A stretch of 64,000 bases of DNA from the IMG/VR virus record IMGVR_UViG_3300027976_000026. The stretch is one strand, 5' to 3'. The DNA is from an uncultured virus (IMG/VR IMGVR_UViG_3300027976_000026). Lineage: Duplodnaviria > Heunggongvirae > Uroviricota > Caudoviricetes > Straboviridae. Made by a program: the position numbers and the translations under genes. This document shows, in pieces, positions 36,383 through 53,820 of the stretch (position 1 is its first letter; every line of letters begins with the position of its first letter). The notes below the pieces were generated by a model. It was not told where the DNA came from. It did no database searches and saw nothing but the letters and a program-made list of their open reading frames with translations.

Positions 36383-36550
36383 TTTGATCCCCATTTTTAT
36401 TGTTCCCTGCATACCTATCTACTAGGTGACGAGGGATTTTACGAATTACGGTGTAAAATTTGAATCAGAGTTAATACATAACCTCATCACTAGCAGCAGA
36501 AGCAGTTGCCGATGACTGAATCCAACAACAGCACAGGGAGTCAATTGATT

Positions 36551-38455
36551 ATGAAAAGAAAACTAATCAGCTTCGATGCGTTTAAGAAAATCGAAGAAGC
36601 ATCACTTACAAACGCCCAGGAAGAGTTAATCGGGGCAGAAGAAGTGTTGGCAAAAACCTTGGGTGTAGATGACTTGAAGTTATTCACCTTCGGGGAATCC
36701 GACGTTACATACCAAGCACCGGACGGAAGTTTCGTACATGCCAGCTACAAGTTAGAAAAGGACCAATTGGTCCTTGAGAATCTTGAACAATTGGTTATTG
36801 AAGAGGAAAGCGAGAAGAAAAATGCCCGCCAAACCCTAGTCAATATGGTAGATTCGCTACTTGAGAACAACGAAGCAAAGGCAGGCCAGCAATTTGAGGC
36901 TTATCTTTCCATGCCGTTTGTTCGTAGAGAATTGCTAGTCAGCGAAGGGTTTAAGGTCACTGTTTCCAAGCCTACTGGCAGTAACTCACCGCTCAAAAAC
37001 AAAAAGCAGAGTCGTTCTTTGGTCGCAAAGCGTACTCGCTCCCGCAATAAGACCCTCTCCCGTATTTCCAAGAGCCAGAAAGAACAACTCGGTCGCAAGC
37101 GTACTTCCGCTTCTAAGCAACTAGGTGGTTCTAACAATCCACGTTGGCGTACATACGCTCGCAAAGTCAAGCCGAACACCATCAAAGAATGGTCGATGAT
37201 GTGCGAGAACGTCATGAGCTATTTGGACTACAAAGAATTTGGCCCTGTTATGTCTGAATCCATGATTCAGACAGACGACAGAGGTAACGTAACTGGTGTT
37301 GCAATGCAAACCATCCAGAAGCGTAATGAAGGCAAGATTTTGACCTTCAATTGGAAGACTATGGATCATGAGATCAAAGTTCTCCGTGGAAATGTCAAGA
37401 AGCTGTCAGAAGACCAGACCTTCATTAAGGCCATGACCGATCTGAAGCGATACAACAACATTTCTGACAACTCTTCACTCGAAGAAACACTAGAAGCTAT
37501 TGTCAGCCGTTGGCCAGATGTTCTTTACATCACCGAAGGCGAATTGGCAGAGCAAATTTCAACAGCGTTGGAGACAGCCAATGTCACCAACTATGACGAC
37601 AATATGTGTTCTTTCATGGCTGAAGCAATTCTTCGCACAGCACACAATGCTTTCACGGATCGTGTACGCAAAATCGGCTCCCTGGCTGGCAGCACAAACG
37701 ACCTGACTGCTGAGTGCAAGACCTGTGAGGATTCCTACAAAGAATTCAAGACTGTTGCTGACAAGTTCTACACCCAGCTAGACGAGTCTGACTCGGCTGA
37801 CCTGAGAGTATTTGCTGACTTGTTCAAGGCTCTCCACGAAGTCCACCGTGTTGCCGCCGAAACTGGTGATGAAGCAACCAAGGCTGAAGTTGAGAACTAC
37901 ATGCAGGAATGTGCTGCTGTTCTGAACCGTGAAACTCAAGTTGATCTAAGTCTTGCAGAGGCTATTGCCAATTATCTGCACGATCTAGTTGAAGCTAATG
38001 TTTCTGGTGCGGAAGCAACATGGAACGTTTCCAACAGTGATGTACATAGCACAATCAATGGCGATCACCCAAGAACATCTTGGAACGCCAAGCAAACTGA
38101 CGCAGTTCCTTCCAAGTATACCGGCGACTACGGCGACGAAGCCCCGGTATCTGACGGCAAGAGCTACAAGAATGGATTAGCAGATGAAATGCGAAATCGT
38201 TCGTGGAGCAACATTGGCGGTGCAGACACTTGGCCAGACATGAAGAACCCATATGTACCGAAGCCTTTCGGCGATTACAAGATGAAAGAAAAGTCGGCAG
38301 TTGATGATGGCGAAAGTGATTGGAGCCGTTGGCAGTCTGGCGACACATGGCCGAACTTGAAGAACCCGTATGTGCCTGACTCCCCTTGGGACAAGAGCAA
38401 ATACAAGATGAAGTCCGACAACCTAGTTGTCGATAAAGGCGAAACCAAGGTCTAA
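36551..38455 (+). CDS. large head-module protein (prohead core/internal)
   Basis: Immediately upstream of the prohead protease; basic central patch; duplicated DTWPx(M/L)KNPYVP motif. Confidence 0.65.
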   Translation: MKRKLISFDAFKKIEEASLTNAQEELIGAEEVLAKTLGVDDLKLFTFGESDVTYQAPDGSFVHASYKLEKDQLVLENLEQLVIEEESEKKNARQTLVNMVDSLLENNEAKAGQQFEAYLSMPFVRRELLVSEGFKVTVSKPTGSNSPLKNKKQSRSLVAKRTRSRNKTLSRISKSQKEQLGRKRTSASKQLGGSNNPRWRTYARKVKPNTIKEWSMMCENVMSYLDYKEFGPVMSESMIQTDDRGNVTGVAMQTIQKRNEGKILTFNWKTMDHEIKVLRGNVKKLSEDQTFIKAMTDLKRYNNISDNSSLEETLEAIVSRWPDVLYITEGELAEQISTALETANVTNYDDNMCSFMAEAILRTAHNAFTDRVRKIGSLAGSTNDLTAECKTCEDSYKEFKTVADKFYTQLDESDSADLRVFADLFKALHEVHRVAAETGDEATKAEVENYMQECAAVLNRETQVDLSLAEAIANYLHDLVEANVSGAEATWNVSNSDVHSTINGDHPRTSWNAKQTDAVPSKYTGDYGDEAPVSDGKSYKNGLADEMRNRSWSNIGGADTWPDMKNPYVPKPFGDYKMKEKSAVDDGESDWSRWQSGDTWPNLKNPYVPDSPWDKSKYKMKSDNLVVDKGETKV

Positions 38456-41563: not shown

Positions 41564-41598
41564 AAGAAACCTACCGACACTATGTCGGTAGGTTTCTT
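41564..41598. terminator. bidirectional terminator after the capsid gene
   Basis: AAGAAACCTACCGACA-CTA-TGTCGGTAGGTTTCTT. Confidence 0.9.
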
Positions 41599-42775
41599 AT
41601 TGGTTTTTACAAACGTAGCTGCGAAGAAGTGCTTCTTTCGTGTCCACGTTTAGCGACTTGAGGTAAACTTCGTCCCACACCAGGAACACCCCGCCCTCAT
41701 CCCTCGCAAGTTCCTTGCCTCGATTTTCCTTCGCTATATTGATCTCGTCTGTCCTCTTAAAACCCGGCTTCACTTCGACAAAGTAAAGTTTTTCGTCACC
41801 AATGTATTTGACTAGAAAATCTAGCACATATCTATGGGTTTTTCCCAGGTAGACATAATCAATCCCGAACGGCTCGAAATCATACCACTCGACTGATTGA
41901 TTTTCGCTTAGGTGGATGTGAGCGATCAATTCCAGATGCGATCTGAAATAAGGGTTCGTTTTCCTGCATTTGCCTGCCGGATGAGAAATCCATCCTGTTA
42001 TGTGTCCTTGATTCCATCGTCCTCCAGCCCACTTTCCCGACGTAATTAAGTCGATCATCGTTTTGCTTTGCTTCTGATTCCACTCTTCTGGCCTTGTAAT
42101 GCCTTTTGCCCAAGGATTTGCGTAGCTTTCAGCGAGCCATGTTGTGCAGTTCTGGCGTAGATAATCTTTCATTTCTGGTAGTTGGTTGTAGTGTTCAACT
42201 CCATATTTCTCCAGAGTGGTGATTGCTCCTTTAACTCGGACTTCAGGCAAGCTCAAAGGATTATCTACTCCATACCGTTCTTGACAAGTTTGTCGCATTT
42301 TCTCCTGGATTTTTTCAGATTGAAGAGGAAAGTCTACGCCATATTTTTCTTGCATAGCTTCATTAAGTCGCCGTATGCCTTCATCGGTTTTCATGATATG
42401 GTCGGCCCCATATCGCTTCACAGAAGTTTCCCGTCGTTTGTTGACAATTTTCTGCGTAGATTCCTCAGTACCGAACATCTTTTCAACCCGTTCAGCGATC
42501 TTTTCCGGTGTATTGATCGGCATGGCAGTGCCATATTTTGCGATATTGGTTTTCTCAATTTTATCTCGAACCTCTTTGCGATTAGCGGGGTTATTCGCTG
42601 CCATTTGACATGAACGGCAAATATGCTTGCCGCCATGTGCATCAGCATTCTTTTGAGCAACGCTGTATATTGGCGTAGACTCCGTTCCGCACAATTTGAA
42701 CCCGCCGTTACAATCGTACTTGATCCGCACCCGTTGTCCAGGTAGTAGATTCGCAGGAATCTTTTCGATGTACAT
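41597..42775 (-). mobile_element. free-standing homing endonuclease with KYG repeats and a TnsA-like PD-(D/E)XK domain
   Basis: Repeated (K/R)YG(V/A/T) units; YFRSHLE, FEPFGIDY, RYVLDFLV, FVEVKP. Confidence 0.75.
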
Positions 42776-42874: not shown

Positions 42875-43039
42875 TCAGTTGGTTTTCTTAAACCAATCAG
42901 GACGCATTTTGCGAATCTCCGCATCAAACTCAGGATCATATCCTTGACTGTTGAATACAGCTTTTGAGAGCGGTCGTGGCTCGCCATTACGAGCCATTTC
43001 CATAAGTTGTTGCTTCTTCGCCTTTGCTTCGTCACTCAT
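42875..43039 (-). CDS. 54-aa single-repeat mini-protein (not in the ORF track)
   Basis: Manual translation: MSDEAKAKKQQLMEMARNGEPRPLSKAVFNSQGYDPEFDAEIRKMRPDWFKKTN*. Confidence 0.75.
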   Translation of the reverse strand: MSDEAKAKKQQLMEMARNGEPRPLSKAVFNSQGYDPEFDAEIRKMRPDWFKKTN

Positions 43040-43104
43040 CGCTACATTATCCAAATCAGATAATTAAGTAACCACTACGCATCATACCAAAAGATTATTG
43101 AGTG

Positions 43105-44436
43105 TCAACTCCTGAACCAATCAGACCGCAGTTTTCGAATTTCTTTGTCGAAGTCTGGGTCGTAAGAACCACCTTGATTAGTATAATGAGTTAAAACCTT
43201 TCCTAATTCTCCCGTCTTTTGACTGGGTCTTAGTTCACCATTCTTTGCCATGTCCAGAAGTTGTTGTTTCTTCTGGTCAGCAATATCAGATGTTAATACA
43301 AACCAATCAGGTCTTAAATTTCTGATTTCCTTATCAAATTCTGGATTATAACAGCCATTTTTTAGACTTGTATAAGAAGACAACATGCCTCCTAATTCAT
43401 GTTTTTTATTATTTGGTCTTGGTTCACCATTTTTAGCCATTTCCAATAGTTGTTGTTTAGCAATATTAGATGTTGAGATAAACCAATCAGGTCTGAGATT
43501 GCGAATCTCTGCGGCAAATTTAGGATCGTAACATTTTGATACAGTACAAATGTAATTATTAAACACCGATCCCAATTTAGTTTTTCTCTTTGGTTTTGGC
43601 TCACAGTTTCTCGCCATTTCCAGAAGTTGTTGTTTCTTCTCGCTTGCAACATCGAACTGAGATATAAACCAATCAGGTCTAAGTTCACGGACTTCCTTGT
43701 CAAATTCTGGATTATAACAGCCATTTTTTGGATTAGTATAAGAAGACAACGTGCTTCCTAATTCATGTTTTTTATCATTTGGTCTTGGTTCACCGTTTCT
43801 CGCCATTTCCAGAAGTTGTTGTTTAGCAATATTAGATGTTGAGATAAACCAATCAGGTCTAAGCCTACGAATTTCTGCATTAAATTCAGGATCAGATCTC
43901 ATGTAATGATTAAACGCAATTCCTAATTCATGTTTTTTATCATTTGGTCTTGGTTCACCATTCTTTGCCATTTCCAGAAGTTGTTGTTTTTTATCGCTTG
44001 CAACATCGAACTGAGATATAAACCAATCAGGTCTGAGATTGCGAATCTCTGTGGAAAAATTAGAATCGTAACATGGGTTTTTTGGATTAGTATAAATTCT
44101 CAAAAAAATTCCCAAGTTATGCGTCCGTACTTTTGGTATTGGATGTTCTTTACGAGCCATTTCCAAAAGTCGCTGTTTCTTCTGTACGGAATTATCAAAC
44201 CAATCAGGTCTAAGTTCACGGATTTCTGCGTCAAACACATCATCATAACAGCCACCTTTAAGGCGTATATAGTTGCGAAAAACCGATCCCAATTTAGTTT
44301 TTTTCTTTGGTTTTGGCTCTCCGTTTCTCGCCATTTCCAGAAGTTGTTGTTTATTCTGGTCAGATTGAGTTAAGCAGAACTTCTCCCAGCCGTCAATTGA
44401 TTCTAAGAGTTGTAATTGCCATGTTTTGAGTGTCAT
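43105..44436 (-). CDS. 7-repeat protein B (about 60-aa KKQQLLEMA...RPDWF repeats)
   Basis: Seven repeats counted; ATGA overlap with the upstream paralog gives start MTLKTWQ at 44436. Confidence 0.85.
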   Translation of the reverse strand: MTLKTWQLQLLESIDGWEKFCLTQSDQNKQQLLEMARNGEPKPKKKTKLGSVFRNYIRLKGGCYDDVFDAEIRELRPDWFDNSVQKKQRLLEMARKEHPIPKVRTHNLGIFLRIYTNPKNPCYDSNFSTEIRNLRPDWFISQFDVASDKKQQLLEMAKNGEPRPNDKKHELGIAFNHYMRSDPEFNAEIRRLRPDWFISTSNIAKQQLLEMARNGEPRPNDKKHELGSTLSSYTNPKNGCYNPEFDKEVRELRPDWFISQFDVASEKKQQLLEMARNCEPKPKRKTKLGSVFNNYICTVSKCYDPKFAAEIRNLRPDWFISTSNIAKQQLLEMAKNGEPRPNNKKHELGGMLSSYTSLKNGCYNPEFDKEIRNLRPDWFVLTSDIADQKKQQLLDMAKNGELRPSQKTGELGKVLTHYTNQGGSYDPDFDKEIRKLRSDWFRS

Positions 44437-45794
44437 TTTATTTTTCTGAACCAATCAGACCGCAGTTTTCGAATTTTTTTGTCGAAGTCTGGGTCGTAAG
44501 ATTTATGTTTTAGTCTTGTGTAACAACCCAAAACCGATCCCAGTTTATGTGTTTTTTGATTTGGTCTAGGCTCGCCGTTCCTTGCTATCTCCAGAAGTTG
44601 TTGTTTCTTCTGGTCAACAATATCAGATTGAGTTTTTTTATTTCTGAACCAATCAGGCATAAGTTCACGAATTTTTTTGTCGAAATCTGGATCGTAAGAA
44701 CTGTCTTTTGGTTTTGTGTAATAAACCAAAGCCGATGCCAATTTATGTGATTTCCTATTTGGTCTTGGTTTGCCACGACGTGCCATATCGATAAGTTGTT
44801 TTTTTTTATGATTTACGGCATAACGAAACCAGTCGGGTCTAAGGCTGCGAATTTCCTTATCAAAATTTTTGTCAAAGGTATTGCCTACGGTTGTATATTT
44901 GCTTAAACAACTACCAATGTGTTCTGAAATTTTTGGTCTTAGTTTTCCTCGTCGTGCCATCTCTAAGAGTTGTTTCTTCTTTTGGTTGGCACGCTCAGAT
45001 AGAGACACAAACCAATCAGACCGCAGTTTTCGAATTTCTTTGTCGAAGTCTAGGTCGTAACAATTAGATTTTGTAGTGTATAAAGTCAATGAATGGCCCA
45101 ACTCATGTACTTTTTGAATAGGTCTTGGTTCACCACGACGTGCCATCTCCAAAAGTTGTTGTTTCTTCTGATCGGCAATATCAGATAAAGATGAAAACCA
45201 GTCAGGTACGATTTTGCGGATTACCTTGTCAAACTCTGGATCGTAGCAATCTCGCTTGTGTTCTGTGTAAATACGCAAGACATTTCCTAGACCATCTCGT
45301 TTAGGTTTTTTCTCTCCATTCCTTGCCATCTCCAAAAGTTGTTGTTTCTTCTGATCGGAAATATTAGATCGAGACACGAACCAATCAGGTCTGATCTTAC
45401 GAATTTTTTTATCAAAGTCTTGGTCGTAGCTGCCGCTTTTTTGACTCGTATAGCAAGTCAAACCAGATCCCAATTTATGTGATTTCTTATTTGGTCTTGG
45501 TTTGCCACTATATGCCATCTCTAAGAGTTGTTGTTTCCTTTTCTTGGCACACATGAACCAGCGGGGTATGCGTTCTCTGATTTGCTTGTTGAATTCTGAA
45601 TCATAAGAACTGCTGTTGTGTCTCGTGTATTCATTCAAAACATACCCCAGAGGATGCTTTCCCGGAATGGGTTTTGTCTCGCCATTCTTTGCCATCTCCA
45701 TAAGTTTCTGTTTCTTCTGACTTGATTTAGATAAACAGAACTCCTTCCAGCCACTTTTGGAATCCAAAAGTTGTATTTGCCAAATACTAAGCAT
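44433..45794 (-). CDS. 7-repeat protein A
   Basis: Seven repeats; likely start MLSIWQ at 45794, overlapping the helicase stop by 8 nt. Confidence 0.85.
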   Translation of the reverse strand: MLSIWQIQLLDSKSGWKEFCLSKSSQKKQKLMEMAKNGETKPIPGKHPLGYVLNEYTRHNSSSYDSEFNKQIRERIPRWFMCAKKRKQQLLEMAYSGKPRPNKKSHKLGSGLTCYTSQKSGSYDQDFDKKIRKIRPDWFVSRSNISDQKKQQLLEMARNGEKKPKRDGLGNVLRIYTEHKRDCYDPEFDKVIRKIVPDWFSSLSDIADQKKQQLLEMARRGEPRPIQKVHELGHSLTLYTTKSNCYDLDFDKEIRKLRSDWFVSLSERANQKKKQLLEMARRGKLRPKISEHIGSCLSKYTTVGNTFDKNFDKEIRSLRPDWFRYAVNHKKKQLIDMARRGKPRPNRKSHKLASALVYYTKPKDSSYDPDFDKKIRELMPDWFRNKKTQSDIVDQKKQQLLEIARNGEPRPNQKTHKLGSVLGCYTRLKHKSYDPDFDKKIRKLRSDWFRKIK

Positions 45795-47679
45795 TCTCTG
45801 TCTGCCTTTTATAATGTGCTCGTTGAACTGCCATAAATCGGTACAGCGAGCTATCTTTGTCAAGATTTTCAAAGCCAATTCGACTTGCTTCTTCAACTTT
45901 TTCTTTCCAATCTGTTCCTAAGAACTGTTGGAGTCTTTGAAGGTCATTTGTATTGGCTCGACCTTCAAATGGAGAATGCGGAGCTATATGAGTTCTGACG
46001 ACTACGTCCCAACCATGTTCACGCACAAAATCAACAATCATTCCATCAAGTCGTAGATCAGGGTTATTTGGATTTTGTCGTCTTAGGAGTTCTTTACGGA
46101 GTCGTTCTTTGAGGACTTCATAAGAGACATTTTCCAAGATATAATCATCAAATGATTCGATGATATCTTCGATTACTTCGTTGATGGCATCTGGAGTGCG
46201 AAGGTCTTCTGGGATTGCAAGTACAGCTTGGAGCATTTCTTCGATTACATCGTTACGTTTAGAGCCGTAAACATCTTCAAGGCTGACGTATTTAACTGGT
46301 TCAGTGTCTTCTTCGTCGTCATCAAATGGCAATGTGGGCATGAGGATGGGATAGAACATATCATCGAGCATTGACGAGACGATAACTGCGTTAAACATAT
46401 CCGAGATGTTTTGGCGGATTTTATCTGATGGTGAGTCCCATTGTGCGAAGTATTCGATGTAATTGACCATTTTGACATCTTGTTTGTCTTTATGGTCTCG
46501 AAGACTGCGGCCCAATTTTTGGATGGCCAAGTGTACCGAACGATCAAAACTAGCGTTGTGGATTCGTGAGCATGGAGGCCAATCTGTCCCTTCTCGACCT
46601 ATCATGCAGGTGACAGCAACTTGAAAGTCATGGTCATCTGACATGAGTCGATCTTTATCTCGTTTTTGTCGATCTGGTCGTACTAGATCGAGAACCAATT
46701 TTGGTCCATAGATTTGTTCTAGTTTTTCTACTAATGTCTTAACCCATTCGGTTTTATTGGTGGTCTTAAAAAAGCTATTGCCATCTGAGGGAACAATAAT
46801 GAGGGCAGGTTCGTTTGATTCTTCTTTGACAGAATCAATGATCTGATTCATGAGTTGAGTGCTATTTTCATAGCAAACATAATTTTGTCGTAATTCACGC
46901 AGTCCAAGGACATTCCAGTGTTCCATGAATGGCACTCTGAAAATCTCGAAATCACTAAGATAATCGGTGTCAATAATGGCTTGTTTATTGCCACGATAGA
47001 AGAGTGCGGTCATTACATGAAGAAATCCCTCTTGATCCAAGAGGTATTTGCAAAATTCACCCAATCTATTCATTTCATAATCATCTTCACTTACGCCTGA
47101 AACATGTTGTATTTCATCGATGCGAAACGATGTATTTTTGATCGCACGTTTCTTTTCAGAATTGCTCATATTCTGAAAGGCTTTTATGAAGGCGGCGTAT
47201 GTAGCAACGCAAGTGACTCCTCCGAGGACATCTTGTTTTCTGAAGGAATCTAGGCTTTTTTTAGTTCGTTTTTCCAGAAGAAATTTACGAACACTTTCGA
47301 CTGAGCCATCATTTTCTTCACAGCAATTGGTGGTTATTTCCCAATGATAAATTTTGCCATCTATATTCAACATGGGGTGTTTTTTCTCAGTGAACCCATA
47401 TCCGATATTGAGTTGTGGCACAATAAAGATTTGTTTTCGTTCATAGTCAGTTTGGATAATTTCACGAGCTGCGTCGAAGATTTGCATTAAACTTTTACCA
47501 CTCCCTGTTGGTGCAACGGTGAGGGTGCGAGTTTTGCCGTCAAAGCTCTTAAATCTACGTATTTGATAATCTCGTCCAGCATACCCAAGCTCTCTTGGTT
47601 GAGATTGTTTTATCGCAGGCAGTTTGGCTTGATGTGGTTTCCAATTTGGATCTCTAAAACTGAAATCGGCAGGCTTCAT
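45787..47679 (-). CDS. SF2 DExH helicase/ATPase (restriction Res-like)
   Basis: RDYQ, APTGSGKS, FIVPQ, ATYAAF, IDEIQH, REGTDWP, IQKLGRSLR. Confidence 0.85.
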   Translation of the reverse strand: MKPADFSFRDPNWKPHQAKLPAIKQSQPRELGYAGRDYQIRRFKSFDGKTRTLTVAPTGSGKSLMQIFDAAREIIQTDYERKQIFIVPQLNIGYGFTEKKHPMLNIDGKIYHWEITTNCCEENDGSVESVRKFLLEKRTKKSLDSFRKQDVLGGVTCVATYAAFIKAFQNMSNSEKKRAIKNTSFRIDEIQHVSGVSEDDYEMNRLGEFCKYLLDQEGFLHVMTALFYRGNKQAIIDTDYLSDFEIFRVPFMEHWNVLGLRELRQNYVCYENSTQLMNQIIDSVKEESNEPALIIVPSDGNSFFKTTNKTEWVKTLVEKLEQIYGPKLVLDLVRPDRQKRDKDRLMSDDHDFQVAVTCMIGREGTDWPPCSRIHNASFDRSVHLAIQKLGRSLRDHKDKQDVKMVNYIEYFAQWDSPSDKIRQNISDMFNAVIVSSMLDDMFYPILMPTLPFDDDEEDTEPVKYVSLEDVYGSKRNDVIEEMLQAVLAIPEDLRTPDAINEVIEDIIESFDDYILENVSYEVLKERLRKELLRRQNPNNPDLRLDGMIVDFVREHGWDVVVRTHIAPHSPFEGRANTNDLQRLQQFLGTDWKEKVEEASRIGFENLDKDSSLYRFMAVQRAHYKRQTENA

Positions 47680-47680
47680 A

Positions 47681-48316
47681 TCATGACCTTATAAAGAGGA
47701 AGGTTCCCATGTCGGTTCTGGACGCTTTGTAGCAATAAAGCTGTTCTGAAACAGTCCAATCTGTTGGATTTCTCAGATGTTTTACTACTGATTCGACCAA
47801 AATTTTTGGATCAAATCTTTTACTGGAATGCCCATCTGACAACATCAGATTTGCCGCCACAACAGTTTTTGGTGGGCAGAGATTCATGGTTTTAGCGAGA
47901 TATTTGTGGCAACTCGTTTTGAGCACAGTTTTTGTGTAATCGAAATACACAAGTGCTGGATTGAAAATCTCGAAATTATCTTCGATTGTTTCGAGCCAAT
48001 CTCCGCACAGCCAGTTGGCTTCGGGATGGTTTTTTTTATTGAATTCAATTACACCTTCACCTTTGAGGTCGTTGTCGATTCCAAAAAATTGATTTTTGGT
48101 GATAAATCCAGCTTGGACCAACTGAACGATTTCTGATCCTTCTGTATCGGGTTGTTTATTGCAGAAGGTCCAGTAAGATTTTTCCATTGGAATTGAATGG
48201 ATGCCGGTAATTTTTCTATAAGCATTGATCAATTCTTGTCTTGCCTTTATCTTGGCAGAGTTCTTATAATATTCTGGCTGTTCGGCGAAATGATGTTTGT
48301 CGAATGGATTTTGCAT
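47681..48316 (-). CDS. putative class I SAM-methyltransferase-fold protein
   Basis: Strand pattern YWTFC / FFGIDND / WLCGDW / LVYFDY / VVAANL / MGTFLF; no canonical GxGxG. Confidence 0.45.
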   Translation of the reverse strand: MQNPFDKHHFAEQPEYYKNSAKIKARQELINAYRKITGIHSIPMEKSYWTFCNKQPDTEGSEIVQLVQAGFITKNQFFGIDNDLKGEGVIEFNKKNHPEANWLCGDWLETIEDNFEIFNPALVYFDYTKTVLKTSCHKYLAKTMNLCPPKTVVAANLMLSDGHSSKRFDPKILVESVVKHLRNPTDWTVSEQLYCYKASRTDMGTFLFIRS

Positions 48317-48376
48317 GTGTGATTTATAGCACAAATCACACAATTGTTCAAGGACAAAATAACTGATGAAGATTGA

Positions 48377-48565
48377 CACTGTCACAAGCCTTTAGATGGC
48401 AAAGCATCCGAGGATGTAATGAGCAATCAGATCAATGAAAATTTGTTTCCACCAAAGTTCTTAAACTGGCCTGTTCATTTGCATCACGATCATAAGACTG
48501 GCATGACAGTAGGTGCAGTTCATTCCCACTGCAACGCTGTATTATGGCAATATCATAATGAGTAA
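48377..48565 (+). pseudogene. 5'-truncated endonuclease VII-like (His-Me finger) gene
   Basis: In-frame TGA followed by HCHKPL...PVHLHHDHKTGMTVGAVHSHCNAVL*. Confidence 0.6.
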
Positions 48566-53385: not shown

Positions 53386-53820
53386 ATGAAAACATTTAAT
53401 GAATGGCTGCAAGATCAAGACCCAGAACTTTATGAAGGATTGTTTGACAATATCAAACAATATGGCAAACATGCTGCAATAGCTGGATCTTTATTAGGTG
53501 CTGGAATGATTGGAAATCAATTATCTGCCGCTCCACAAGCTTCTGTTTCAAGAGGAGTTCAGGCTGATAAAATAAGTGCCCCATCTGTACGTGGACAATT
53601 GCCTAAAGGCAAATACACGAGAGAGATGGGAGGTAATTATGTAAATAATAGAACTGGAGTGGAATTTGATAAGCATCAAAACCCAGCAGGCGGCACTTAT
53701 TCTAATGATGGAAATTCTTGGACTTCCCCAAATGCCAATACTTTCTTTAAGGCAGGCGGCACTTATTCTAAGGATGGAAATTCTTGGACTTCCCCAAATG
53801 CCAATACTTTCTTTAAGTAA
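53386..53820 (+). CDS. candidate internal head protein with a hydrophobic segment
   Basis: MKTFNEWLQ..ELYE leader; AAIAGSLLGAG segment. Confidence 0.65.
   Translation: MKTFNEWLQDQDPELYEGLFDNIKQYGKHAAIAGSLLGAGMIGNQLSAAPQASVSRGVQADKISAPSVRGQLPKGKYTREMGGNYVNNRTGVEFDKHQNPAGGTYSNDGNSWTSPNANTFFKAGGTYSKDGNSWTSPNANTFFK
53686..53817 (+). repeat. 66-bp tandem duplication (1 mismatch)
   Basis: Encodes AGGTYS(N/K)DGNSWTSPNANTFFK twice. Confidence 0.95.

What the first reader, a model, noticed from the sequence alone, without database searches (positions are those of the whole stretch)
44370..45915. Helicase-associated-like domain split between the helicase and both repeat proteins
Seen: the helicase ends WKEKVEE...SSLYRFMAVQRAHYKRQTENA*, and both repeat proteins begin with the same non-repeat leader (MLSIWQIQLLDSKSGW; MTLKTWQLQLLESIDGW). 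Known: an HA domain runs W...LxxWxxxQRxxY...LxxxxIxLLxxxGxxW, so these look like its first and second halves. Inference: either each array docks on the helicase by completing the domain in trans (swappable subunits), or a +1 shift near 45787-45815 produces a helicase-array fusion. The leader is retained in the second paralog, which is not adjacent to the helicase; this favours docking over a simple sequence error.
Basis: inference. Interest (0 to 1): 0.72.

Follow-up and report, generated by a model that had tools for sequence, protein, structure and literature searches.

The report
Split docking domain on phage helicase
In this uncultured large phage, a small three-helix domain is cut in two by a gene boundary: two helices end a helicase and the third opens each neighbouring repeat protein, which probably lets the helicase plug in different repeat-protein partners.

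Summary
The SF2 helicase (47679..45787, minus strand) ends in a 40-residue two-helix tail. Both repeat-array genes begin with a ~20-residue leader helix.

Profile comparison places the leader on helix 3 of a helicase-associated (HA, PF03457) domain (E 2.6e-7; 0 of 150 shuffles reach it). The tail falls on the preceding helix more weakly (E 0.017; 2 of 150).

Relatives carry the two pieces contiguously: P0261, P0175 and nine array proteins whose N-termini hit Pfam HA.

The split is not an error. It recurs, with the same 8-base stop/start overlap, in relatives whose helicases are 51-67% identical, and contigs of four runs bridge it without indels.

A +1 frameshift fusion is not supported. No slippery site is conserved, the starts have Shine-Dalgarno-like motifs, and in one relative the arrays lie upstream of the helicase yet keep the leader.

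In the closest relative the same leader heads a different repeat type. Covalently fused helicase-array forms mostly lack both tail and leader.

Docking in trans is the best reading, but it is inferred. The complex prediction gave only weak support (0.35; best control 0.00).

Verdict: a new variant of a known kind.

The parts
45910..47679 (-). SF2 helicase core (residues 1-590)
   Evidence: Pfam ResIII 27.1 bits (cut-off 22.5). Weak DEAD and Helicase_C hits. phrog_16 'DNA helicase', E 1.7e-13. 46 homologs at E<=1e-10. 1537 representatives at E<=1e-3.
45790..45909 (-). Helicase tail, residues W591-A630: two helices read as helices 1-2 of an HA-type three-helix domain
   Evidence: Conserved in 29 aligned helicases. 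By a rough regex, 33 of 185 family members end this way. hhalign against contiguous HA N-termini gives E 0.017, with 2 of 150 shuffles reaching it. A tail HMM matches P0261 350-386 (E 8e-15), P0192 and P0175, in a database of 10 proteins.
45787..45794 (-). 8-base stop/start overlap ATGCTTAG: helicase ...N-A-stop, array-1 M-L-S...
   Evidence: The same overlap ([AG]TGCTTAA) occurs at the helicase/array junction in L001, L003 and L006, and at array/array junctions in L001 and L004. An AAAGG motif lies 10 nt upstream of the ATG.
45735..45794 (-). Array-1 leader (residues 1-20), read as helix 3 of the split HA-type domain
   Evidence: hhalign Prob 93, E 2.6e-7; 0 of 150 shuffles reach it. W16 and F19 are conserved in at least 90% of 30 aligned array proteins. 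In the AF2 model it forms helices 4-12 and 16-20, with block pLDDT 76 and 68 against 85-96 for the units.
44433..45734 (-). Array-1 body: 7 tandem units of about 55-65 aa, each three helices (consensus KKQQLLEMARNGEPRP..LG..L..YT....YDPEFDK.IR.LRPDWF), plus stop
   Evidence: AF2 on residues 1-140 gives mean pLDDT 87.6 and three helices per unit. 204 homologs at E<=1e-5.
44433..44436 (-). ATGA overlap of the array-1 stop and the array-2 start
44374..44436 (-). Array-2 leader (residues 1-21), an intact paralog of the array-1 leader
43105..44373 (-). Array-2 body: 7 units, plus stop
   Evidence: The whole protein is 52% identical to array 1.
42875..43107 (-). Decayed third copy: the junction sequence is recognisable (…TGACACTCAA…), but ATG has become TTG and the leader frame is broken. 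A 59-aa single-unit ORF follows (43054..42875).
   Evidence: DNA alignment with the array-1/array-2 junction; translations; ORF list.

Best explanation
The locus encodes a helicase and two detachable repeat-array subunits that share one small connector domain, and a gene boundary cuts that domain in two.

Ancestrally, helicases of this family carried C-terminal HA-type three-helix domains and repeat arrays in a single polypeptide. In this phage lineage a stop codon, overlapped by a start codon, lies between helix 2 and helix 3 of the first HA-type domain. The helicase therefore ends in an incomplete two-helix stub. Every array protein begins with the missing third helix.

Proposed mechanism (inferred):
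- The leader helix of an array protein packs into the helicase stub and completes the three-helix bundle.
- This tethers a basic, probably nucleic-acid-binding, array to the helicase without a covalent link.
- All array paralogs carry the same plug, so they compete for one socket and the helicase can exchange partners.
- The stop/start overlap would couple translation of the first array to that of the helicase.

Shown here: the two-part anatomy, its conservation, the homology of the leader to HA helix 3, the existence of unsplit and fused relatives, and the modularity of the leader.

Inferred: physical docking, exchange of partners, nucleic-acid binding by the arrays, and translational coupling.
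For: 1. The split is conserved.
- The helicase tail plus leader-bearing arrays are found in L001/L002 (3 arrays), L003 (5 or more), L004 (3-4) and L006 (2). Their helicases are 51-67% identical to the window's.
- Contigs of 4 runs bridge 45787-45794 with no indel. Two of these runs come from other studies and carry SNPs.

2. The two pieces are one domain.
- Leader versus contiguous HA-type N-termini: E 2.6e-7, 0 of 150 shuffles. Tail: E 0.017, 2 of 150 shuffles, in the adjacent register.
- 9 of 11 contiguous-type array homologs hit Pfam HA at their N-terminus; 2 of them score above the cut-off.
- P0261 carries tail, leader-like helix and units in one ORF. P0175 and P0180 carry a leader-like helix (…LESLTGWKGRDF / …LNSLPGWKTKKF) just after where the family profile ends; a tail HMM confirms the tail in P0175 but not in P0180.
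- An AF2 model of that part of P0261 (pLDDT 88.1) aligns over 69 of the 74 residues of the HA NMR structure 2KTA. This is rank 5 of 48,161 chains, Z 4.9, rmsd 5.0.
- Family members P0270, P0275 and P0294 carry bona fide Pfam HA repeats, E 1.5e-12 to 4.1e-19.

3. The leader is a separate module.
- In L006, the closest relative (67% identity, same ATGCTTAA overlap), the same leader heads a different ~55-aa repeat type.
- P0090 has a near-identical leader on window-type units.
- In L004 the arrays lie upstream of the helicase and still keep the leader, and the helicase keeps its tail.

4. Complementary presence and absence.
- Of 9 covalent helicase-array fusions among the 185 family proteins examined, 7 lack both tail and leader (P0027, P0029, P0032, P0171, P0176, P0179, P0182).
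- P0192 keeps the tail only, and P0261 keeps both.

5. Complex prediction, helicase 556-630 with array-1 1-80: weak support.
- Median ipSAE 0.35 (runs 0.38, 0.35, 0.01); best of 3 controls 0.00. The runs agree in at least 47% of contacts, and partner pLDDT is at least 63.
- Tool calibration: 116 of 157 solved complexes and 2 of 215 mismatched pairs reached the mark. At 0.60 or under, only 18 of those solved complexes did, and so did both mismatches.
Against: - There is no experimental evidence of binding.
- The complex score is in the weak band, and one of three runs gave 0.01.
- The tail-to-HA link is marginal (E 0.017). No window protein reaches Pfam HA on its own, and the fused reading reaches only 14.4 bits against a 28.4-bit cut-off.
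- The structural matches to 2KTA (Z 4.9 and 3.2) are tied with many unrelated helical hits.
- P0192 shows that a tail can be followed directly by units with no helix 3. The stub may therefore be stable or functional alone.
- In the AF2 monomer the leader is helical at moderate confidence, so it could simply cap the first unit.
- Whether genomes with fused helicases lack leader-bearing arrays could not be checked (searches found no loci).
Confidence: 0.55

Rival explanations
1. Fission relic without docking. The gene was split inside the domain, but the pieces no longer meet. The tail is a degenerate end of the helicase. The leader serves as an N-terminal cap of the array or binds some other partner, so helicase and arrays act separately.
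For: - The complex prediction is only weak.
- The leader folds as helices in the monomer model.
- P0192 has a tail with no helix 3.
- Other array proteins carry quite different N-terminal leaders (MLHK…, MLTEV… types), so arrays can work with other heads.
Against: - Tail and leader are both conserved across helicases 51-67% identical.
- The leader is kept on an unrelated repeat type and when gene order changes.
- Both pieces are absent in 7 of 9 covalent fusions, which fits a connector role.
- Controls in the complex test scored 0.00.
Confidence: 0.3
2. A programmed +1 frameshift (or another recoding event) near 45787-45815 makes a helicase-array fusion protein alongside the free helicase.
For: - The array-1 frame is the helicase frame +1 and stays open for 34 codons upstream of the ATG in the window.
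- A +1 reading gives a continuous HA-like stretch.
- Natural single-ORF forms exist, such as P0261.
Against: - No slippery motif is conserved among the window, L001, L003 and L006.
- The leader frame has a stop 10 codons upstream of the start in L003 and 15 in L001.
- The starts are ATG or GTG, preceded by AAAGG, AAGAGG or GGAGGG at 8-10 nt.
- In L004 the arrays are upstream of the helicase, so no fusion is possible, yet tail and leader persist.
- The later array genes carry the same leader behind complete units, where a fusion would complete nothing.
Confidence: 0.05
3. A sequencing or assembly indel split a single helicase-array ORF.
For: Fused homologs exist.
Against: - The same split, with the same 8-base overlap, occurs in independent contigs with helicases 51-67% identical.
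- Contigs from 4 runs bridge the junction with no letters left out or put in. Two of these runs are from other studies.
Confidence: 0.01

Closest known systems
SF2 helicases with C-terminal tandem HA (helicase-associated, Pfam PF03457) domains; the HA NMR structure 2KTA from Bacteroides vulgatus
   Same: - The same helicase family: P0270, P0275 and P0294 are hit by the A1 profile at E 1.8e-55 to 1.2e-48 and carry 2-3 Pfam HA copies.
- The same position, at the C-terminal end of the helicase.
- The same small three-helix unit. The leader is homologous to helix 3.
- From its title only, as listed in the references of PMC12191111, the 2KTA paper (Mills et al. 2013) says the domain binds DNA. The paper itself is not held.
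   Different: - Here the first HA-type domain is cut between helices 2 and 3 by a gene boundary.
- The rest of the array sits on 2-5 separate paralogous proteins.
- The array units are not recognised by the Pfam HA model, and they were not significantly like the HA N-termini in my test (E 0.09; 25 of 150 shuffles).
T4 UvsW helicase and its small downstream partner UvsW.1
   Same: An SF2 phage helicase whose former C-terminal 76 residues are a separate, conserved downstream ORF (passage read in PMC1524935). A passage in PMC7824862 describes it as a trihelical potential DNA-binding partner.
   Different: - No sequence similarity: hhalign of the T4 C-terminal stretch against units, HA N-termini and tails gave E 0.13-0.28.
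- UvsW.1 is a whole small protein, not one helix of a cut domain.
- It is a single partner, not a family of paralogs with a shared plug.
Naturally split proteins that reassemble from fragments, such as split inteins and split polymerase subunits (recalled, not checked here)
   Same: A gene boundary inside a folding unit, with the pieces expected to refold together.
   Different: Here one piece (the socket) would serve several alternative partners, and the partners differ in their cargo arrays. No splicing is involved.
Translationally coupled overlapping genes (ATGA-type and longer stop/start overlaps)
   Same: An 8-base overlap and a 4-base overlap, with Shine-Dalgarno-like motifs upstream.
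   Different: The overlap lies inside one protein domain, and it has been copied together with the array genes.

Membership tests
Pfam HA (PF03457) domain | Match to the Pfam HMM at or above the gathering score (28.4 bits) | tested here: not met
   There is no HA hit at E<=1 for the helicase, array 1, array 2 or the 59-aa ORF. The +1 reading across the junction scores 14.4 bits, E 0.047, its only Pfam hit.
Pfam HA (PF03457) domain | Homology of the leader to helix 3 of HA-bearing relatives | tested here: met
   hhalign of the leader alignment against N-termini of array homologs, 9 of 11 of which hit Pfam HA: Prob 93, E 2.6e-7; 0 of 150 column shuffles reach it.
Pfam HA (PF03457) domain | Homology of the helicase tail to helices 1-2 | tested here: inconclusive
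   hhalign gives E 0.017, with 2 of 150 shuffles reaching it. The tail HMM gives weak repeated matches inside the HA repeats of P0291, P0275, P0270 and P0294, and clear matches to P0261, P0192 and P0175.
Pfam HA (PF03457) domain | Three-helix fold like the solved HA domain (2KTA) | tested here: inconclusive
   The unsplit relative P0261 (tail plus leader region) matches 2KTA at Z 4.9, rmsd 5.0, 69 of 74 residues, rank 5 of 48,161. The second unit of window array 1 (model residues 75-140) matches at Z 3.2, rmsd 4.0, 64 residues, rank 43. Both are tied with unrelated helical hits. Foldseek found nothing at E<=0.001.
Pfam HA (PF03457) domain | Located C-terminal to a helicase, often in tandem | tested here: met
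   The tail is the helicase C-terminus. Family members P0270, P0275 and P0294 have 2-3 HA copies there.
Pfam HA (PF03457) domain | Binds DNA | not testable with these tools
   Only the title of Mills et al. 2013 was seen, in the reference list of PMC12191111.
SF2 helicase (ResIII / Helicase_C) | ResIII or DEAD N-terminal lobe and Helicase_C lobe | tested here: met
   ResIII scores 27.1 bits against a 22.5-bit cut-off. DEAD (17.1) and Helicase_C (17.4) fall below their cut-offs. phrog_16 E 1.7e-13. Remote PDB matches are Dicer-related helicase, Rad25/XPB and RIG-I.
Programmed ribosomal frameshift site | Conserved slippery sequence, with the downstream frame open across the site | tested here: not met
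   No shared slippery motif was found. The leader frame is closed 10-15 codons upstream in L003 and L001. In L004 the arrays are upstream of the helicase.
T4 UvsW / UvsW.1 pair | Sequence relationship of the small partner | tested here: not met
   hhalign E 0.13-0.28 against units, HA N-termini and tails. tblastn of the helicase against 50,697 phage records found 2 records, neither of them T4-like.
Translationally coupled gene pair | Stop/start overlap with an upstream ribosome-binding motif | tested here: met
   ATGCTTAG (8 bases) and ATGA (4 bases); an AAAGG motif lies 10 nt upstream of the array-1 ATG. Coupling itself cannot be tested here.

The most novel reading that the evidence does not exclude
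The split HA-type domain is a general plug-and-socket. The two-helix stub on the helicase is a socket. A one-helix plug heads a fast-evolving set of interchangeable repeat-array cassettes, of at least two unrelated repeat types. The phage thereby re-targets one helicase motor to different nucleic-acid sites or partners. Arrays are gained, duplicated, swapped and lost between closely related phages.
Probability: 0.35. Interest if true: 0.8.

Novelty: new variant of a known kind. Interest (0 to 1): 0.62.

Why it matters
Helicases with HA domains are common, but the role of the domain is barely studied. Here, natural variation places the covalent link, the split inside the domain, and the exchange of cargo arrays side by side in related phages.

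If the two-helix stub and the one-helix leader do reassemble, this would be three things:
- a natural case of fragment complementation used as a subunit-exchange device;
- a compact (~60-residue) heterodimerisation module that could be borrowed for protein engineering;
- a lead to what long HA-like arrays do in very large phages, for instance targeting or loading a helicase on DNA.

It also warns annotators that a helicase tail and a 'hypothetical repeat protein' may be parts of one machine.

Tried and rejected
- Own-genome search: the window's assembly is not held. The nearest record, G001, has no Pfam HA match in six frames at E<=10.
- tblastn of the helicase against named phages: only two distant records.
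- Sequence search of P0119 and of the +1 reading against PDB chains: no HA structure was found, only chance-level rows.
- Foldseek of the array model against PDB: nothing at E<=0.001.
- hhalign of window-type units against HA N-termini (E 0.09; 25 of 150 shuffles), of tails and leaders against units, and of the second repeat type against all three: not significant.
- A short leader HMM against the 185 helicase-family proteins gave only weak hits (best whole-protein E 0.036). Most fell on helix 3 of HA repeats, so I used it as a pointer only.
- T4 UvsW C-terminal stretch against my alignments: not significant.
- Looking for loci of the contiguous-type arrays (P0141, P0119) and of fused helicases (P0029, P0032) in viral contigs: none found. 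The prediction 'no tail, no leader in the same genome' therefore stays untested.
Only 4 of its 34 loci are close relatives (55-67% identity: L006-L009).
- Two mixed alignments (A5, A6) misplaced either the arrays or the helicase ends, so I did not use them for folding.
- Sequencing runs: no RNA holder is listed, so nothing can be said on expression.
- The paper on the HA NMR structure is not held.
- Literature searches found nothing on a split HA domain or on such arrays in phages. The searches were 'helicase associated domain'/'PF03457', 'BVU_0683…', 'HA domain'+helicase+phage+'tandem repeat' and 'gene fission'+'fragment complementation'+…. Most 'helicase associated domain' hits concern the unrelated HA2 domain of DEAH helicases.
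- Earlier-findings look-up: nothing on record.
- TAG read-through of the helicase stop was considered. It would add about 20 residues in the wrong frame, and relatives use TAA.
Full report
**What is there**

All features lie on the minus strand.
- A 630-aa helicase occupies 47679..45787.
- A 453-aa repeat protein, array 1, starts at ATG 45794 and ends at 44433.
- A 443-aa paralog, array 2, starts at ATG 44436 and ends at 43105.
- A decayed third copy follows. Its junction is still recognisable, but ATG has become TTG and the leader frame is broken. A 59-aa single-unit ORF (43054..42875) comes after it.
- The helicase stop and the array-1 start overlap by 8 bases (ATGCTTAG). The array-1 stop and the array-2 start overlap as ATGA.

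The helicase is an SF2 enzyme.
- Pfam ResIII scores 27.1 bits against a 22.5-bit cut-off, and phrog_16 gives E 1.7e-13.
- Its only PDB relatives by sequence are remote ones such as Rad25/XPB, RIG-I and Dicer-related helicase.

Each array has 7 units of about 55-65 residues. AlphaFold2 models each unit as three helices (mean pLDDT 87.6 for residues 1-140). The window is phage-like, with a head module next door, and homologs sit on contigs of up to 618 kb.

**Is the split real?**

Yes.
- Helicases 51-67% identical in L001/L002, L003, L004 and L006 end in the same kind of tail. Their repeat genes, 2 to 5 or more per locus, each start with a leader.
- At the helicase/array junction the overlap [AG]TGCTTAA recurs in L001, L003 and L006. 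It has also been copied to array/array junctions in L001 and L004.
- Contigs of four runs bridge 45787-45794 with no letters left out or put in. Two of these runs may be the source of the window. The other two come from other studies and differ by SNPs.

**Are tail and leader two parts of one HA-type domain?**

Direct Pfam evidence is absent or weak.
- No window protein hits Pfam HA at E<=1.
- Reading the junction with a +1 step gives a single Pfam hit, HA, at E 0.047. That is 14.4 bits, below the cut-off, and it spans the junction. The halves alone hit nothing.

The comparative evidence is better.
- Among the 120 listed array homologs, 11 begin with a contiguous …W…QR..Y…L…LE…GW.W segment instead of a bare leader.
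- Nine of these 11 hit Pfam HA there, on model positions about 25-64. Two score above the cut-off.
- The leader alignment matches the last helix of these segments: hhalign Prob 93, E 2.6e-7, and 0 of 150 column shuffles reach it.
- The tail alignment matches the preceding helix in the adjacent register, but weakly: E 0.017, with 2 of 150 shuffles reaching it.

A profile of 28 helicases, searched against 1.84 billion representatives, found 1537 relatives at E<=1e-3. Among the best 150:
- P0270, P0275 and P0294 carry 2-3 genuine Pfam HA copies at the C-terminus (E 1.5e-12 to 4.1e-19).
- P0175 and P0180 carry a leader-like helix just after the point where the family profile ends. A tail HMM matches P0175 there, but not P0180.
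- P0261 has tail, leader-like helix and window-type units in a single ORF.

An AF2 model of that part of P0261 (pLDDT 88.1) aligns with 69 of the 74 residues of the solved HA domain 2KTA. This is Z 4.9, rmsd 5.0, rank 5 of 48,161. It is suggestive but tied with unrelated helical hits.

The array units themselves are only HA-like.
- A language-model look-up puts array 1 nearest to HA clusters, at score 0.84, which is a lead only.
- A unit aligns to 2KTA at Z 3.2.
- My profile test was not significant.

**Fusion by frameshift?**

This is not supported.
- The array frame is the helicase frame +1, but no slippery motif is shared.
- The leader frame is closed 10 codons upstream of the start in L003 and 15 in L001.
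- L001 starts with GTG.
- Shine-Dalgarno-like motifs sit 8-10 nt upstream of the starts.
- In L004 the arrays lie between the upstream neighbour gene and the helicase. A fusion is impossible there, yet the helicase keeps its tail and the arrays keep their leaders.

**Evidence that the two pieces act as a connector**

1. The leader is modular.
- In L006, the closest relative, the same leader and the same overlap head a different ~55-aa repeat (…EEWV..AEQLA.DNGGKLP…PELFKHI…). This repeat has no Pfam family and no significant similarity to the window's units.
- P0090 has a near-identical leader on window-type units.
- Both repeat types also occur fused to helicases of this family. Window-type examples are P0029 and P0182. 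Second-type examples are P0173, P0281 and P0288.

2. Presence and absence are complementary.
- Among the 185 family proteins examined, 9 are covalent fusions to window-type arrays.
- Seven of these go straight from the helicase into units, with neither tail nor leader.
- One keeps only the tail, and one keeps both.
- By a rough regex, 33 of the 185 end in a tail followed by a stop.

3. The third, decayed copy in the window has lost its leader and most of its array together, while array 2 keeps an intact leader.

4. The complex prediction gave weak support.
- The chains were helicase 556-630 and array-1 1-80, each with its alignment.
- The three runs scored 0.38, 0.35 and 0.01 (median 0.35). 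The best of three controls scored 0.00.
- The runs agree in at least 47% of contacts, and partner pLDDT is at least 63.
- By the tool's calibration, 116 of 157 solved complexes and 2 of 215 mismatched pairs reach the mark. In the band at or below 0.60, a pass is more often wrong than right unless the guess was already likely.

**Reading**

The most likely account is a gene fission inside the first HA-type domain of an ancestral helicase-HA-array protein. It left a two-helix socket on the helicase and a one-helix plug on every array gene. Tandem duplication then copied the plug, and part of the junction, along with the arrays. Docking in trans, competition between paralogs, nucleic-acid binding by the arrays and translational coupling are all inferences. 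The main rival is that the pieces are relics that no longer meet.

**Comparison with what is known**

- Helicases with C-terminal HA domains are the defining context of PF03457.
- The T4 UvsW/UvsW.1 pair is an architectural precedent (passages read in PMC1524935 and PMC7824862), but it shows no sequence similarity.
- Four text searches found no description of a split HA domain or of these arrays.

I rate this a new variant of a known kind, of moderate to good interest. It is readily testable by pull-downs with leader and tail deletions.

Noticed in passing
L006:9874-11503: The closest relative (helicase 67% identical) has two array genes with the window-type leader and the same 8-base overlap. 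Their bodies are a different ~55-aa repeat (EEWV..AEQLA.DNGGKLP…PELFKHIEQ) with no Pfam family. The same repeat is fused to other helicases of the family (P0173, P0281, P0288).
   Followed up: partly
window 42875-43107 (-): A third copy of the array junction has decayed: ATG has become TTG and the leader frame is broken. A 59-aa single-unit ORF follows. This suggests birth-and-death turnover of the array genes.
   Followed up: partly
window 41597-42775 (-): A homing-endonuclease-like gene (DUF7487 repeats, E 2.5e-23, plus a TnsA-like endonuclease N-terminal domain; PHROG homing endonuclease families) lies directly after the array remnant. A homolog lies near the arrays in L001 (13302..).
   Followed up: no
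window 47681-48385 (-): The upstream neighbour is conserved next to the helicase or arrays in L001, L003, L004 and L006. It has no Pfam or PHROG family. A language-model look-up gives viral hypothetical clusters (0.96) and a methyltransferase-like cluster (0.92), which is a lead only.
   Followed up: partly
proteins P0052, P0056, P0060, P0069 and others: Many array homologs carry other conserved N-terminal leaders (MLHK..S.Y.EIAK.FPEL…, MLTEVKNNYKS…). These also start with ML, so they may be plugs for other sockets. The contiguous HA-type N-termini begin at about Pfam position 25, as if helix 1 were missing or encoded elsewhere.
   Followed up: no
L001:11824-13287 (-): A 487-aa protein made of about 6 tandem zinc-ribbon-like units (…YICECGNESKI.F..F..G.RC..C…) lies near the arrays in L001/L002.
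   Followed up: no
window 53386-53820 (+) and 36506-38455 (+): Two other ORFs have short internal repeats: GGTYS.DGNSWTSPNANTFFK twice, and W.[DN][LM]KNPYVP twice.
   Followed up: no
window 44300-45400: In the laid contigs the array region is broken into many short contigs, with joints that skip or go back between units (tables 5 and 8). This is expected for near-identical repeats, so unit counts in assemblies of these arrays may be unreliable.
   Followed up: no
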